Part shown: in pieces, positions 16,624 to 22,600 of the stretch
Position numbering within the stretch: position 1 is the stretch's first letter
Layout of the letters: each line of letters begins with the position of its first letter
Assembly: GCF_009914755.1 (NCBI RefSeq)
Contig: NC_060926.1
Direction: 5' to 3' (one strand)
DNA length: 64,000 nt
Source of the DNA: the human T2T-CHM13v2.0 reference genome, Homo sapiens
Notes under the pieces: model-generated
The model's input: the letters and a program-made list of their open reading frames with translations, nothing else
Databases searched by the model: none
Told to the model about the DNA's origin: nothing
Translations under genes and position numbers: made by a program

Positions 16624-19600
16624 TTTTTTTTTTAAGTTTTAGGGTACATGTGCACAACGTGCAGGTTTGTTACATATGTATACATGTGCCATGTTGGTGT
16701 GCTGCACCCATTAACTCATCATTTAGCATTAGGTATATCTCCTAATGCTATCCCTCCCCCCTCCCCCCACCCCACAACAGCCCCTGGTGTGTGATGTTCC
16801 CCTTCCTGTGTCCATGTGTTCTCATTGTTCAATTCCCACATATGAGTGAGGACATGTGGTGTTTGGTTTTTTGTCCTTGCAATAGTTTGCTGAGAATGAT
16901 GGTTTCCAGCTTCATCCATGTCCCTACAAAGGACATGAACTCATCCTTTTTTATGGATGTGTAGTATTCCATGGTGTATATGTGCCACATTTTCTTAATC
17001 CAGTCTATTGTTGTTGCACATTTGGGTTGGTTCCAAGTCTTTGCTGTTGTGAATAATGCCACAATAAACATATGTGTGCATGTGTCTTTATAGCAGCATG
17101 ATTTATAATCCTTTGGGTATATACCCAGTAATGGGATGGCTGGGTCAAATGGTATTTCTAGTTCTAGATCCCTGAGGAATCACCACACTGACTTCCACAA
17201 TGGTTGAACTAGTTTACAGTCCCACCAACAGTGTAAAAGTGTTCCTAATTCTCCACATCCTCTCCAGCACCTGTTGTTTCCTGACTTTTTAATGATCGCC
17301 ATTCTAACTGGTGTGAGATAGTATCTCACTGTGGTTTTGATTTGCATTTCTCTGATGGCCAGTGATGATGAGCATTTTTTCATGTGTCTTTTGGCTGCAT
17401 AAATGTCTTCTTTTGAGAAGTGTCTGTTCATATCCTTTACCTACTTTTTGATGGGGTTGTTTGTTTTTTTCTTGTAAATTTGAGTTCATTGTAGATTCTG
17501 GATACTAGCCCTTTGTCAGATGGTTAGATTGCAGAAATTTTCTCCCATTCTGTAGCTTGCCAGTTCACTATGATGGTAGTTTCTTTTGCTGTGCAGAAGC
17601 TCTTTAGTTTAATTAGATGCCATTTGTCAATTTTGGCTTTTGTTGCCGTTGCTTTTGGTGTTTTAGACATGAAGTCCTTGCCCATGCCTATGTCCTGAAT
17701 GGTATTGCCTAGGTTTTCTTCTAGGGTTTTTATGGTTTTAGGTCTAACGTTTAAGTCTTTAATCCATCTTGAATTGATTTTTGTATAAGGTATAAAGAAG
17801 GGATCCAGTTTCAGCTTTCTACATATGGCTAGCCAGTTTTCCCAGCAAAATTTATTAATAGAGAATCCTTTCCCCATTGCTTGTTTTTCTCAGGTTTGTC
17901 AAAGATCAGATAGTTGTAGATACGCAGCATTATTTCTGAGGGCTCTGTTCTGTTCCATTGGTCTATATCTCTGTTTTGGTACCAGTACCATGCTGTTTTG
18001 GTTACTGTAGCCTTGCAGTATAGTTTGAAGTCAGGTAGCGTGATGCCTCCAACTTTGTTCTTTTGGCTTAGGATTGACTTGACAATGCGGGCTCTTTTTT
18101 GGTTCCACATGAACTTTAAAGTAGTTTTTCCCAATTCTGTGAAGAAAGTCATTGGTAGCTTGATGGGGATGGCATTGAATCTATAAATTACCTTGGGCAG
18201 TATGGCTATTTTCATGATATTGATTCTTCCTAACCATGAGCATGGAATGTTCTTCCATTTGTTTGTATCCTCTTTTATTTCCTTGAGCAGTGGTTTGTAG
18301 TTCTCCTTGAAGAGGTCCTTCACATCCCTTGTAAGTTGGATTCCTAGGTATTTTATTCTCTTTGAAGCAATTCTGAATGGGAGTTCACTCATGATTTGGC
18401 TCTCTGTTTGTTTGTTATTGGTGTATAAGAATGCTTGTGATTTTTGTACATTGATTTTTTATCCTGAGACTTTGCTGAAGTTGCTTATCAGCTTAAGGAG
18501 ATTTTGGGCTGAGACAATGGGGTTTTCTAGATATACAATCATGTCGTCTGCAAACAGGGACAATTTGACTTCCTCTTTTCCTATTTGAATACCCTTTATT
18601 TCCTTCACCTGCCTGATTGACCTGGCCAGAATTTCCAACACTATGTTGAATAGGAGTGGTGAGAGAGGGCAACCCTGTCTTGTGCCAGTTTTCAAAGGGA
18701 ATGCTTCCAGTTTTTGCCCATTCAGTATGATATTGGCTGTGGGTTTGTCATAGATAGCTCTTATTATTTTGAGATACATCCCATTGATACCTAATTTATC
18801 GAGAGTTTTTACCATGAGGGGTTCTTGAATTTTGTCGAAGGCCTTTTCTGCATCTATTGAGATATTGAGATAATCGTGTGGTTTTTGTCATTGGTTCTGT
18901 TTATATGCTGGATTACGTTAATTGATTTGCATATGTTGAACCAGCCTTGCATCCCAGGGATGAAGCCCACTTCATCATGGTGGATAAGCTTTTTGATGTG
19001 CTGCTGGATTCGGTTTGCCAGTATTTTACTGAGGATTTTTGCATCAATGTTCATCAGGGATATTGGTCTAAAATTCTCTTTTTTTGTTGTGTCTCTGCCA
19101 GGCTTTGTTATCAGGATGACGATGGCCTCATAAAATGAGTTAGGGAGGATTCCCTCTTTTTCTATTGATTGGAATAGTTTCAGAAGGAATGGTACCAGCT
19201 CCTCCTTGTACCTCTGGTAGAATTCAGCTGTGAATCCATCTGGTCCTGGACTTTTTTTGGTTGGTAAGCTATTAATTATTGCCTCAAATTCAGAGCCTGT
19301 TATTGGACTATTCAGAGATTCAACTTCTTCCTGGTTTAGTCTTGGGAGGGTGTATGTGTCCAGGAATTTATCCATTTCTTCTAGATTTTCTAGTTTATTT
19401 GTATAGAGGTGTTTATAGTATTCTCTAATGGTAGTTTGTATTTCTGTGGGATCGGTGGTGATATCCCCTTTATCACTTTTTATTGCATCTATTTGATTCT
19501 TCTCTCTTTTCTTCTTTACTAGTCTTACTAGCAGTCTATCAATTTTGTTAATCTTTTCAAAAAACCAGCTCCTGGATTCATTGATTTTTTGAAGGGCTTT

Positions 19601-22600
19601 TTGTGTCTCTATTTCCTTCAGTTCTGCTCTGATCTTAGTTATTTCTTGCCTTCTGCTGGCTTTTGAATGTGTTTGCTCTTGCTTCTTTAGTTCTTTTAAT
19701 TGTGATGTTAGGGTGTCAGTTTTAGATCTTTCCTGTTTTCTCTTGTGGGCATTTAGTGCTACAAATTTCCCTCTACACACTGCTTTGAATGTGTCCCAGA
19801 GATTCTGGTATGTTGTGTCTTTGTTCTTATTGGTTTCAAAGAACATCTTTATTTCTGCCTTCATTTTGTTATGTACCCAGTAGTCATTCAGGAGCAGGTT
19901 GTTCAGTTTCCATGTAGTTGAGGGTTTTTTTTTTTTGTTAATTATACTTTAAGTTTTAGGGTACATGTGCACATTGTGCAGGTTAGTTACATATGTATAC
20001 ATGGGCCATGCTCGTGCGCTGCACCCATTAACTCGTCATCTAGCATTAGGTATATCTCCCGATGCTATCCCTCCCCCCTTCCCGCACCCCACAACAGTCC
20101 CAGAGTGTGATATTCCCCTTCCTGTGTCCATGTGATCTCATTGTTCAATTCCCACCTATGAGTGAGAATATGTGGTGTTTGGTTTTTTGTTCTTGAGATA
20201 GTTTACTGAGAATGATGATTTCCAATTTCATCCACGTCCCTACAAAGGACATGAACTAATCATTTTTTATGGCTGCATAGTATTCCATGGTGTATATGTG
20301 CCACATTTTCTTAACCCAGTCTATCATTGTTGGACATTTGGGTTGGTTCCAAGTCTTTGCTATTGTGAATAATGCCGCACTAAACATACGTGTGCATGTG
20401 TCTTTATAGCAGCATGATTTATAATCCTTTGGGTATATACCCAGTAATGGGATGGCTGGGTCAAATGGTATTTCCAGTTCTAGATCCCTGAGGAATTGCC
20501 ACACTGACTTCCACAATGGTTGAACTAGTTTACAGTCCCATCAACAGTGTAAAAGTGTTCCTGCTTCTCCACATCCTCTCCGGCACCTGTTGTTTCCTGA
20601 CTTTTTAATGATTGCCATTCTAACTGGTGTGAGATGGTATCTCACTGTGGTTTTGATTTGCATTTCTCTGATGGCCAGTGATGATGAGCATTTTTTCATG
20701 TGTTTTTTGGCTGCATAAATGTCTTCTTTTGAGAAGTGTCTGTTCATGTCCTTTGCCCACTTTTTGATGGGGTTGTTTGTTTTTTTCTTGTAAATTTGTT
20801 TGAGTTCATTGTAGATTCTGGGTATTAGCCCTTTAAGGAAATAGAGACACAAAAACCCTTCAAAAAATTAATGAATCCAGGAGCTGGTTTTTTTGAAAGG
20901 ATCAACAAAATTGATAGACCGCTAGCAAGACTAATAAAGAAAAAAAGAGAGAAGAATCAAATAGACGCAATAAAAAATGATAAAGGGGATATCACCACCG
21001 ATCCCACAGAAATACAAACTACCATCAGAGAATACTACAAACACCTCTACGCAAATAAACTAGAAAATCTAGAAGAAATGGATAAATTCCTGGACACATA
21101 CACTCTCCCAAGACTAAACCAGGAAGAAGTTGAATCTCTGAATAGACCAATAACAGGAGCTGAAATTGTGGCAATAATCAATAGCTTACCAACCAGAAAG
21201 AGTCCAGGACCAGATGGATTCACAGCCGAATTCTACCAGAGGTACAAGGAGGAACTGGTACCATTCCTTCTGAAACTATTCCAATCAATAGAAAAAGAGG
21301 GAATCCTCCCTAACTCATTTTATGAGGCCAGCATCATTCTGATACCAAAGCCAGGCAGAGACACAATAAAAAAAGAGAATTTTAGACCAATATCCTTGAT
21401 GAACATTGATGCAAAAATCCTCAGTAAAATACTGGCAAAACAAATCCAGCAGCACATCAAAAAGCTTATCCACCATGATCAAGGGGGCTTCATCCCTGGG
21501 ATGCAAGGCTGGTTCAATATACACAAATCAATAAATGTAATCCAGCACATAAACAGAGCCAAAGACAAAAACCACAGGATTGTCTCAATAGATGCAGAAA
21601 AAGCCTTTGACAAAATTCAACAACCCTTCTTGCTAAAAACTCTCAATAAATTAGGTATTGATGGGACGTATTTCAAAATAATAAGAGCTATCTATGACTA
21701 ACCCACAGCCAATATCATACTGAATGGGCAAAAACTGGAAGCATTCCCTTTGAAAACTGGCACAAGACAGGGATGCCCTCTCTCACCACTCCTATTCAAC
21801 ATAGTGTTGGAAATTCTGGCCAGGGCAATTAGGCAGGAGAAGGAAATAAAGGGTATTCAATTAGGAAAAGAGGAAGTCAAATTGTCCCTGTTTGCAGACG
21901 ACATGATTGTATATCTAGAAAACCCCATTGTCTCAGCTCAAAATCTCCTCAAGCTGATAAGCAACTTCAGCAAAGTCTCAGGATACAAAATCAATGTACA
22001 AAAATCACAAGCATTCTTATACAACAACAACAGACAAACAGAGAGCCAAATCATGAGTGAACTCCCATTCACAATTGCTTCAAAGAGAATAAAATGCCTA
22101 GGAATCCAACTTACAAGGGATGTGAAGGACCTCTTCAAGGAGAACTACAAACCACTGCTCAAGGAAATAAAAGAGGATACAAACAAATGGAAGAACATTC
22201 CATGCTCATGGGTAGGAAGAATCAATATCGTGAAAATGGCCATACTGCCTAAGGTAATTTACAGATTCAATGCCATCCCCATCAAGCTACCAATGACTTT
22301 CTTCACAGAATTGGGAAAAACTACTTTAAAGTTCATGTGGAACCAAAAAAGAGCCCGCATTGTCAAGTCAATCCTAAGCCAAAAGAACAAAGATGGAGGC
22401 ATCACACTACCTGACTTCAAACTATACTGCAAGGCTACAGTAACCAAAACAGCATGGTACTGGTACCAAAACAGAGATATAGATCAATGGAACAGAACAG
22501 AGCCCTCAGAAATAATGCCGCATATCTACAATTATCTGATCTTTGACAAACCTGAGAAAAACAAGCAATGGGGAAAGGATTCCCTATTTAATAAATGGTG

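What the first reader, a model, noticed from the sequence alone, without database searches (positions are those of the whole stretch)
17329..22429. Host and nested L1 of different subfamilies share non-consensus mutations: local gene conversion
Seen: both copies read ELGK (18130/22315), KFMWN (18108/22337), RIVKS (18082/22363), KLYCK (18016/22429), LEILAR (18632/21813), ILSKIL (19029/21424) and KTTVR (17329/20645). The recalled L1 consensus has ELEK, KFIWN, RIAKS, KLYYK, LEVLAR, ILNKIL and KTTMR. Most are non-CpG changes, so independent recurrence is unlikely. The 3'UTRs still look like different subfamilies. Inference: patchy ectopic gene conversion after insertion, in both inverted and direct orientation. 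Alternative: assembly or polishing cross-talk between copies.
Basis: partly seen in the sequence, partly recalled or inferred. Interest (0 to 1): 0.7.

Follow-up and report, generated by a model that had tools for sequence, protein, structure and literature searches.

The report
Short sequence exchange between nested L1s
A younger L1 retrotransposon that landed inside an older one has picked up a handful of the older copy's own rare mutations, most clearly in one ~115-base patch, which is a tidy but ordinary example of neighbouring repeats copying sequence into each other.

Summary
All seven motif pairs are present.

**Structure**
- A full-length host L1 lies on the minus strand (~16620-25755).
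- A younger, 5'-inverted L1 (19925-22904) splits it, with a poly(A) tail and target-site duplication.

**Different subfamilies**
- The two 3'UTRs fish out disjoint relatives.
- The copies take opposite states at 29 of 36 diagnostic columns.

**Shared rare states**
- They share exactly seven states that are rare (≤10%) in 77 unlinked copies. About 0.8 is expected (P≈4e-9).
- None of 359 unbiased unlinked cross-subfamily pairs shares more than two.
- Four of the seven lie within 115 nt (host 18016-18130). A 63-mer covering three of them occurs only at these two places in the genome; the common version occurs 3,940 times.
- None of 24 relatives of the nested copy carries any of the seven. Two host relatives carry two each, so transfer probably ran host→nested.

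**Limits**
- The three isolated sites, including the only direct-orientation one, are not beyond chance on their own.
- A run-length test is not significant.
- Timing and read support could not be tested.

Verdict: a short ectopic gene-conversion tract, which is a known kind of event.

The parts
16620..19924 (-). Host L1, 3' portion: ORF2 from about residue 240 to the end, 3'UTR, and a poly(A) tail seen as a T-run at 16620-16633
   Evidence: ORF2 fragments on the minus strand. T-run at the low end. The reading resumes exactly where the 5' portion stops.
19925..20835 (-). Nested L1, 3' piece: end of ORF2, 3'UTR, and a 13-nt poly(A) seen as a T-run at 19925-19937. It is in direct orientation relative to the host.
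   Evidence: It aligns to host 16620-17514 at 93.3% (894 nt, 60 mismatches).
20836..22904 (+). Nested L1, inverted 5' piece (ORF2 middle; its last 401 residues align to residues 637-1037 of PDB 8sxt). It forms a 2.07-kb inverted repeat with host 17542-19618.
   Evidence: Identity to the host is 95.5% (2,068 nt, 93 mismatches). 27 nt of L1 (host 17515-17541) are missing at the junction with the 3' piece.
19917..19924 (.). Target-site duplication of the nested insertion, left copy (GTTGAGGG)
   Evidence: Read directly. The right copy lies at 22905-22912.
22905..22912 (.). Target-site duplication of the nested insertion, right copy (TTGAGGGG, same word offset by one base)
22913..25755 (-). Host L1, 5' portion: 5'UTR, ORF1 and the endonuclease part of ORF2. 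The 5'UTR runs past the end of NCBI's repeat mask at 25454.
   Evidence: ORF1 and endonuclease fragments. 5'UTR-like sequence read to about 25755; where the element starts is judged by recalled knowledge of the L1 5' end.
18016..18130 (-). Host side of the supported exchange tract. It holds four shared rare states at 18016, 18082, 18108 and 18130. The widest limits set by flanking copy-specific differences are 17962-18182.
   Evidence: Frequencies in unbiased unlinked copies are 1/24, 1/24, 0/22 and 0/22. The haplotype is unique genome-wide. Both copies have the host-type state at diagnostic column 18084. The copies still differ inside the tract at 18039 (CpG) and 18052.
22315..22429 (+). Nested side of the same tract (widest limits 22263-22483)
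   Evidence: The gapless inverted repeat I1 puts host position p opposite nested position 40445-p.
17329..17329 (-). Isolated shared rare state (KTTVR; partner 20645 on the minus strand, direct orientation)
   Evidence: G in 2 of 58 unlinked copies. Both carriers are host-subfamily copies (L015, L052). Not significant on its own.
18632..18632 (-). Isolated shared rare state (LEILAR; partner 21813 on the plus strand)
   Evidence: A in 0 of 33 unlinked copies. Copy-specific differences at 18615/18620 and 18672 limit any tract to about 51 nt.
19029..19029 (-). Isolated shared rare state (ILSKIL; partner 21424 on the plus strand)
   Evidence: G in 1 of 27 unlinked copies. Differences at 19013 and 19057 limit any tract to about 43 nt.

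Best explanation
An older, full-length L1 on the minus strand was hit by a younger L1. The younger copy integrated with the usual 5' inversion, so 2.07 kb of it lies inverted and 0.9 kb lies direct relative to the homologous host sequence, all within 5 kb. At least one short stretch of host sequence (115-221 nt, host 18016-18130) was then copied into the inverted part of the nested copy by non-allelic (ectopic) gene conversion. This carried four of the host's own rare base states into a copy that otherwise keeps its own subfamily's states. Both elements are dead, with many stops and frameshifts, so this is neutral sequence exchange with no function. Shown: the structure, the subfamily difference, the excess and clustering of shared rare states, and the genome-wide uniqueness of the haplotype. 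Inferred: the mechanism (heteroduplex formation and repair between the neighbouring repeats), the host-to-nested direction, and the timing. The three isolated shared states may be further very short patches or chance.
For: Structure: poly(A), an 8-nt target-site duplication, and an inversion junction with 27 nt of L1 missing. Different subfamilies: the top-40 lists for the two 3'UTRs are disjoint and neither copy appears in the other's list. At 36 strong diagnostic columns the host has the host-type and the nested copy the nested-type state at 29. Excess sharing: 7 shared rare same-base states in 2,949 positions against about 0.83 expected same-position coincidences, P 3.7e-9. Unbiased unlinked pairs give host x nested-relatives 15 zero and 4 one of 19; nested x host-relatives 9 zero, 6 one and 2 two of 17; relatives x relatives 264 zero, 51 one and 8 two of 323. 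Clustering: 4 of the 7 lie within 114 nt, reached in 626 of 100,000 random placements, or 1,082 of 100,000 when placed among host-rare sites. In 17962-18182 all five host-rare positions are also nested-rare positions. Uniqueness: the 63-mer occurs at 2 places against 3,940 for the common version at <=1 mismatch. Each of the 28 best unlinked matches to host 18000-18200 carries at most one of the four block variants. Direction: 0 of 24 relatives of the nested copy carry any of the seven states. The only unlinked copies with two of them (L015, L052) are host-subfamily copies. Both copies have the host-type state at diagnostic column 18084. Precedent: shared non-diagnostic mutations between Alus less than 10 kb apart are attributed to gene conversion (passages in PMC6598467 and PMC8230782).
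Against: A run-length test is not significant: the longest identical run is 130 nt (18053-18182) and is reached in 715 of 5,000 random placements. Inside the block the copies still differ at 18039, a diagnostic CpG column where each keeps its own subfamily's state, and at 18052, where the host has T, the nested copy A and all unbiased references C. So the tract is either interrupted or has mutated since. Without the block, the remaining three shared states are within the range of unlinked pairs. Exchange at diagnostic columns is not above background: the host has the other type at 5 of 36 against 49 of 986 pooled in unlinked host-like copies, and the nested copy at 2 of 36 against 25 of 633. 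The reference samples are small in places (10-13 copies per subfamily in the block, and no 3'UTR-selected host relatives beyond about 18420). They consist of best-matching, consensus-like copies. No reads, other human haplotypes or ape orthologues could be examined.
Confidence: 0.62

Rival explanations
1. The exchange happened during integration, not later. While the new L1 cDNA was being joined into a broken host L1, it paired with homologous host sequence exposed by resection, and mismatch repair of that heteroduplex left host states in the new copy.
For: The outcome is the same as in the best explanation. The insertion is of the 5'-inverted type, which implies a double-strand break and complex resolution at the target. 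The shared states are scattered over both pieces.
Against: The block lies about 1.8 kb from the insertion point in the host, and the isolated sites lie 0.9-2.6 kb away. Nothing in the sequence dates the exchange. I know of no call or paper seen here that documents this route.
Confidence: 0.12
2. The nested copy was already a mosaic when it was made, or it belongs to a very small unsampled sublineage carrying these states. In this reading it landed in a host with the same states by coincidence.
For: A small host sublineage with some of the states exists: L015 has 17329 and 18130, and L052 has 17329 and 18016. Recombinant young L1s are reported, with 35 of 2,267 consensus sequences called recombinant in PMC13192797 (methods passage). 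With about 2.5% decay, the scan at <=1 mismatch in 63 nt would find only about half of such copies, by my estimate, so a lineage of one or two copies could be missed.
Against: Only the host carries all seven states; the best unlinked copies carry two. None of 24 relatives of the nested copy carries any. No third place in the genome has the 63-mer at <=1 mismatch, against 3,940 for the common form. Landing in exactly the one matching copy is an unlikely coincidence.
Confidence: 0.07
3. Independent parallel mutation at mutable positions explains all seven shared states.
For: Each state taken singly is found in some unlinked copies: 4-9 of the 28 copies chosen for likeness to the host block carry one each. 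A third, older L1 33 kb away has two of them. The three isolated sites alone are within the null range.
Against: All seven changes are non-CpG. About 0.83 coincidences are expected against 10 same-position and 7 same-base observed. 0 of 359 unbiased unlinked pairs exceed two. Four lie within 114 nt. No other copy combines even two of the three 63-mer states on an otherwise matching background.
Confidence: 0.03
4. Assembly or polishing cross-talk between the two copies wrote one copy's bases into the other.
For: None from any call. It cannot be excluded without reads.
Against: The copies differ at 150 of 2,949 aligned positions plus indels, about one difference per 20 nt, so long reads should place unambiguously (inference). 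The isolated shared states sit 12-28 nt from copy-specific differences that were kept. That pattern is not what mis-mapped reads would give (inference).
Confidence: 0.04

Closest known systems
Proximity-dependent gene conversion between neighbouring Alu elements (Aleshin and Zhi 2010, as described in passages of PMC6598467 and PMC8230782)
   Same: The signal is the same: non-diagnostic (rare) mutations shared by repeat copies that lie within about 10 kb of each other, beyond what unlinked copies share.
   Different: Here the partners are L1 elements of two subfamilies, one nested in the other, with a 2-kb inverted and a 0.9-kb direct homology. It is a single locus and not a genome-wide statistic.
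Gene conversion and recombination of L1 elements (Burton et al. [quoted passage not shown]
   Same: L1 copies that are mosaics of two lineages.
   Different: Those cases concern replacement of a copy by another lineage, or recombinant full-length young elements. Here a short patch of a neighbour's private states sits in an old, dead copy. I did not read Burton et al. itself.
Arm-to-arm gene conversion in palindromes and inverted segmental duplications (recalled knowledge; listings only)
   Same: Inverted repeats a few kb apart on one chromatid exchange sequence without crossover.
   Different: Palindrome arms stay above 99.9% identical through frequent conversion. Here the arms are 95.5% identical and show at most a few short patches, so conversion was rare.
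5'-inverted L1 insertions made by twin priming (Ostertag and Kazazian 2001; recalled, not read here)
   Same: The nested copy has poly(A), a target-site duplication, an inverted 5' segment whose L1 coordinates lie just upstream of the 3' segment, and a small deletion at the junction.
   Different: Nothing differs. It is an ordinary example, and it explains why the homology to the host is partly inverted and partly direct.

Membership tests
5'-inverted (twin-priming type) L1 insertion | Poly(A) tail at the 3' end of the inserted copy | tested here: met
   13-nt T-run at 19925-19937 next to the L1 3' end on the minus strand
5'-inverted (twin-priming type) L1 insertion | Target-site duplication flanking the whole insertion | tested here: met
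   GTTGAGGG at 19917-19924 and TTGAGGGG at 22905-22912. Host ORF2 reads on across the two.
5'-inverted (twin-priming type) L1 insertion | The inverted 5' segment covers L1 sequence directly upstream of the 3' segment, with a small deletion or duplication at the junction | tested here: met
   The inverted piece aligns to host 17542-19618 and the 3' piece to host 16620-17514. 27 nt are missing between them. The junction is at about 20835/20836.
Non-allelic (ectopic) gene conversion between paralogous repeats | Paralogues share non-diagnostic (rare) variants beyond chance and beyond unlinked pairs | tested here: met
   7 shared against about 0.83 expected, P 3.7e-9. 0 of 359 unbiased unlinked pairs exceed 2.
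Non-allelic (ectopic) gene conversion between paralogous repeats | Shared variants form a contiguous tract bounded by copy-specific differences | tested here: inconclusive
   4 of 7 lie within 114 nt (626 of 100,000 random placements), bounded by differences at 17961 and 18183. The tract is interrupted at 18039 and 18052, and three shared sites stand alone.
Non-allelic (ectopic) gene conversion between paralogous repeats | An unusually long identical run between the two copies (GENECONV-type test) | tested here: not met
   The longest identical run is 130 nt, reached in 715 of 5,000 random placements. This was my own simple version; GENECONV itself was not run.
Non-allelic (ectopic) gene conversion between paralogous repeats | Pre-conversion state seen in orthologous loci of other species or in other haplotypes | not testable with these tools
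   Only the window's own assembly is held. No ape genomes, pangenome or reads are available.
   The 63-mer with three of the states occurs at 2 places, both local, against 3,940 for the common form. 0 of 24 nested-subfamily and 2 of 25 host-subfamily unlinked copies carry any of the seven. A small host sublineage carries 17329 G with one further state (L015, L052).
Named L1PA subfamilies for host and nested copy | Match to curated subfamily consensus sequences (Dfam/Repbase) | not testable with these tools
   No repeat library is held, and Khan et al. 2006 (PMC1356131) is not held. What can be said is relative. The best unlinked 3'UTR matches are 95-97% for the host and 96-97% for the nested copy. 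Rare-state loads are 22.5 and 13.2 per kb.

The most novel reading that the evidence does not exclude
All seven shared states come from one event. A heteroduplex more than 1.7 kb long formed between host and incoming or nested L1, covering both the inverted and the direct homology. It was then resolved by short-patch, GC-biased mismatch repair, possibly at the moment of integration into a homologous target. That would make L1-in-L1 insertions a natural record of heteroduplex repair tracts. The A>G excess among the shared states (5 of 7 against 13 of 92) would be its signature.
Probability: 0.1. Interest if true: 0.5.

Novelty: new member of a known kind. Interest (0 to 1): 0.28.

Why it matters
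This is a clean single-locus example showing that old, dead L1 copies lying within a few kb of each other exchange short patches of sequence. The practical consequence is modest. Such patches can distort age estimates and subfamily calls for nested repeats. Shared 'private' mutations between neighbouring copies should not be read as common descent. It adds no new mechanism. A genome-wide survey of nested L1 pairs using the same statistic could measure rate, tract length, orientation dependence and GC bias of ectopic conversion in a neutral setting.

Tried and rejected
**Common sublineage.** Rejected for the block by whole-genome pattern counts and by reference copies selected through their 3'UTRs.

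**Nested copy as a daughter of the host.** Rejected. The two copies take opposite states at 29 of 36 diagnostic columns, and their 3'UTR relatives are disjoint.

**Shared states as ancestral states of an older subfamily.**
- This was suggested by the A>G excess and by an older third L1 in the window that has G at the 18130 and 18016 equivalents.
- It is not supported. Among that copy's 20 best genomic matches, 5 have one G, 4 have the other and none has both. None has the 18108 or 18082 state.
- No copy of that older subfamily was in my samples, so its true consensus remains unseen.

**RNA editing (ADAR-type) as the source of the A>G states.** Considered and set aside. It cannot by itself put the same states into two DNA copies, and a transcript through the inverted pair would edit opposite L1 strands in the two arms (inference).

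**Reverse transfer (nested to host).** The host has the nested type at 17056, 17749, 17776, 18447 and 18546. That is not above what some unlinked copies show (for example 8 of 33), so it is not claimed.

**Sampling bias.** The first reference set was biased inside 18000-18200 because it was chosen with that stretch. Counts from it there (and one search's 11 'shared rare' sites) were replaced by counts from sets chosen with the 3'UTRs.

**Rows dropped before counting.**
- L036, L049, L050 and L055 (4 of 29 host relatives).
- L064, L065, L074 and L090 (4 of 28 nested relatives).
- Their alignments to the host were fragmentary or not anchored at the 3' end.
- L001, L004 and L031-L033 are the locus itself.

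**Disagreement between methods.** The MAFFT alignment and the pairwise projection disagree on the nested base at 16786. That column is not used in any claim.

**Not available.** Khan et al. 2006 is not held. Host-relative sequence upstream of about 18420 could not be fetched.

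
Full report
**What is there**

Between about 16,620 and 25,755 lies one full-length L1 on the minus strand, the 'host'.
- Its 5'UTR, ORF1 and the endonuclease part of ORF2 occupy about 22,913-25,755.
- The rest of ORF2, the 3'UTR and a short poly(A) occupy 16,620-19,924.
- The host's reading of ORF2 stops at 22,913 and resumes at 19,924.

Between the two halves sits a second L1, the 'nested' copy (19,925-22,904).
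- It ends in a 13-nt poly(A), seen as a T-run at 19,925-19,937.
- It is flanked by an 8-nt target-site duplication (GTTGAGGG at 19,917-19,924 and again at 22,905-22,912).
- Its 3' piece (19,925-20,835) has the host's orientation. Its 5' piece (20,836-22,904) is inverted. 27 nt of L1 are missing at the junction.

This is the ordinary 5'-inverted form of L1 insertion (twin priming; the name is recalled, the features were tested). Both elements are riddled with stops and frameshifts.

**The observation**

All seven motif pairs are present at the stated places.
- The solved human ORF2p (PDB 8sxt) has LEVLAR, ELEK, KFIWN, RIAKS and KLYYK at the aligned positions.
- ILNKIL and KTTMR are the forms in 15 and 21 of 28 unlinked copies.
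- Host and nested copy are 95.5% identical over the 2,068-nt inverted homology and 93.3% over the 894-nt direct homology.
- In 200-nt windows, identity ranges from 88.5% to 98.5%. The maximum is at host 17,942-18,141.

**Are they different subfamilies?**

Yes.
- The host's 3'UTR and the nested 3'UTR retrieve disjoint top-40 lists from the whole assembly. Neither copy is in the other's list.
- I used 25 usable host-3'UTR relatives, 14 host-like copies from the first set, and 24 usable nested-3'UTR relatives. These give 36 columns that are strongly diagnostic.
- The host has the host-type state and the nested copy the nested-type state at 29 of the 36.
- The exceptions are not clearly above what unlinked copies show. 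The host has the other type at 5 columns and the nested copy at 2. The pooled unlinked figures are 49 of 986 and 25 of 633, and single copies reach 8 of 33.
- I could not name the subfamilies. No repeat library is held, and Khan et al. 2006 is not held.

**Is the sharing real?**

My first sample was the 28 best unlinked matches to host 18,000-18,200. It suggested that the variants are not common, because each copy had at most one of the four block variants. That sample was biased inside the query stretch, so I built samples chosen by the 3'UTRs.

A state was called rare if it occurred in at most 10% of the references in that column. Inside 18,000-18,200 only the unbiased sets were used. The results were:
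- The host has 63 rare states and the nested copy 39 over 2,949 compared positions.
- Ten fall at the same position, against 0.83 expected (hypergeometric P 3.7e-9).

Unbiased unlinked cross-subfamily pairs share far less:

| Pair type | Pairs | Share 0 | Share 1 | Share 2 |
|---|---|---|---|---|
| Host x nested-relatives | 19 | 15 | 4 | 0 |
| Nested x host-relatives | 17 | 9 | 6 | 2 |
| Relatives x relatives | 323 | 264 | 51 | 8 |

All seven changes are non-CpG.

**Where the weight lies**

Four of the seven (18,016, 18,082, 18,108, 18,130) fall within 114 nt.
- That spacing is reached in 626 of 100,000 random placements, or 1,082 of 100,000 when the seven are placed among host-rare sites.
- Their frequencies in the unbiased references are 1/24, 1/24, 0/22 and 0/22.
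- The exact 63-nt host string across three of them occurs, at up to one mismatch, at only two places in the 3.1-Gb assembly: the host and the nested copy.
- The same stretch taken from an unlinked copy occurs 3,940 times, and the tool states these counts are whole.

With 18,000-18,200 left out, only three shared rare states remain (17,329, 18,632, 19,029). Two of 28 nested x first-set pairs and two of 28 host x first-set pairs also reach three. So the isolated sites are not significant by themselves, and they include the only one in the direct-orientation piece.

**Direction**
- None of the 24 nested-subfamily relatives carries any of the seven states.
- Of 25 host-subfamily relatives, 23 carry none, one carries one and one carries two.
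- The only unlinked copies with two are L052 (17,329 and 18,016) and L015 (17,329 and 18,130). Both are host-subfamily copies that also share host state 16,881.
- At diagnostic column 18,084, inside the block, both copies have the host-type state.

Together these point to the host, or its lineage, as the origin of the states and the nested copy as the recipient.

**Results against the reading**
- A simple run-length test fails: the longest identical run is 130 nt and is reached in 715 of 5,000 placements.
- Inside the block the copies differ at 18,039. This is a CpG column that is also diagnostic, and each copy keeps its own type.
- They also differ at 18,052, where the host has T, the nested copy has A and all 24 unbiased references have C.
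- Any tract around 18,632 or 19,029 would be limited to about 51 and 43 nt by neighbouring copy-specific differences.

**Other leads followed**
- Five of the seven shared states are A>G on the L1 sense strand, against 13 of 92 among non-shared rare states (binomial P 9e-4).
- One possible reason is that these are ancestral states of an older subfamily. A third, older, also 5'-inverted L1 at 53,718-55,669 has G at the 18,130 and 18,016 equivalents.
- That idea is not supported. None of that copy's 20 best genomic matches has both states, and none has the other two block states.
- The A>G excess may reflect GC-biased repair (A/T-to-G/C changes are 5 of 7 against 32 of 92) or the make-up of host-lineage states. 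I leave it open.
- The third copy shares 5 rare states with the host and 3 with the nested copy. Against 29 unlinked copies, only one reaches five or more, so this is marginal.

**Comparison with what is known**
- Shared non-diagnostic mutations between Alus lying within about 10 kb are attributed to gene conversion. I read passages in PMC6598467 and PMC8230782 that cite Aleshin and Zhi 2010.
- L1 gene conversion has been discussed since at least Burton et al. 1991, which I saw only as a reference entry.
- A 2026 preprint of 2,267 young full-length L1 consensus sequences recombinant (methods passage).
- A phrase search for L1 gene conversion found one paper, through its reference list. I did not search further, so I make no claim about what is or is not in print for nested L1 pairs.

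**Verdict**

One short host-to-nested exchange between the inverted homologies is the best explanation (about 0.6). Patchy exchange at the other three sites, conversion in the direct orientation, and timing after insertion are not shown. This is a new example of a known process, of modest interest.

Noticed in passing
window 53718-55669: A third L1, older (about 90% identical to the host in its 3' part) and also 5'-inverted: 54298-55669 on the plus strand and 53718-54304 on the minus strand. It shares 5 rare states with the host (17523, 17862, 18016, 18130, 18233 in host coordinates) and 3 with the nested copy. Only 1 of 29 unlinked copies reaches 5 or more, so this is marginal. It lies about 33 kb away.
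   Followed up: partly
host 17248, 18052, 18876 (nested partners at about 20727, 22393 and 21569): At three positions both copies depart from nearly all reference copies but carry different bases (T/G with A in the references, T/A with C, C/G with T). Together with the seven same-base sites this makes 10 coincident positions against 0.83 expected. No explanation was tested.
   Followed up: no
host 17329, 18016, 18108, 18130, 19029: Five of the seven shared states are A>G on the L1 sense strand, against 13 of 92 among non-shared rare states (P about 9e-4). This could be GC-biased repair or a property of the host lineage. It is not resolved.
   Followed up: partly
window 18742-18941: This is the least similar stretch between the two copies (88.5%). 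It has a cluster of host-only changes at 18773-18843 and 8 nt present only in the host at about 18865-18872, which break the host's ORF2 frame there.
   Followed up: no
window 25455-25755: The host's 5'UTR continues about 300 nt beyond the end of NCBI's repeat mask (25454). A likely host target-site duplication is seen at about 16607-16619 and 25757-25770 (similar 12-14-nt words with one mismatch and one indel).
   Followed up: partly
window 17542-19618 and 20836-22904: The two copies form a 2.07-kb inverted repeat, 95.5% complementary, with a 1.2-kb spacer. It begins 1.6 kb downstream of the last MARCO exon (which ends at 15929). If read-through transcripts exist, it could fold into long double-stranded RNA.
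   Followed up: no
L052 (G000:C14:52798860-52802152) and L015 (G000:C20:19586503-19589703): These two unlinked host-subfamily copies share host states 16881 and 17329, plus 18016 or 18130. They mark a small sublineage to which the host belongs.
   Followed up: partly
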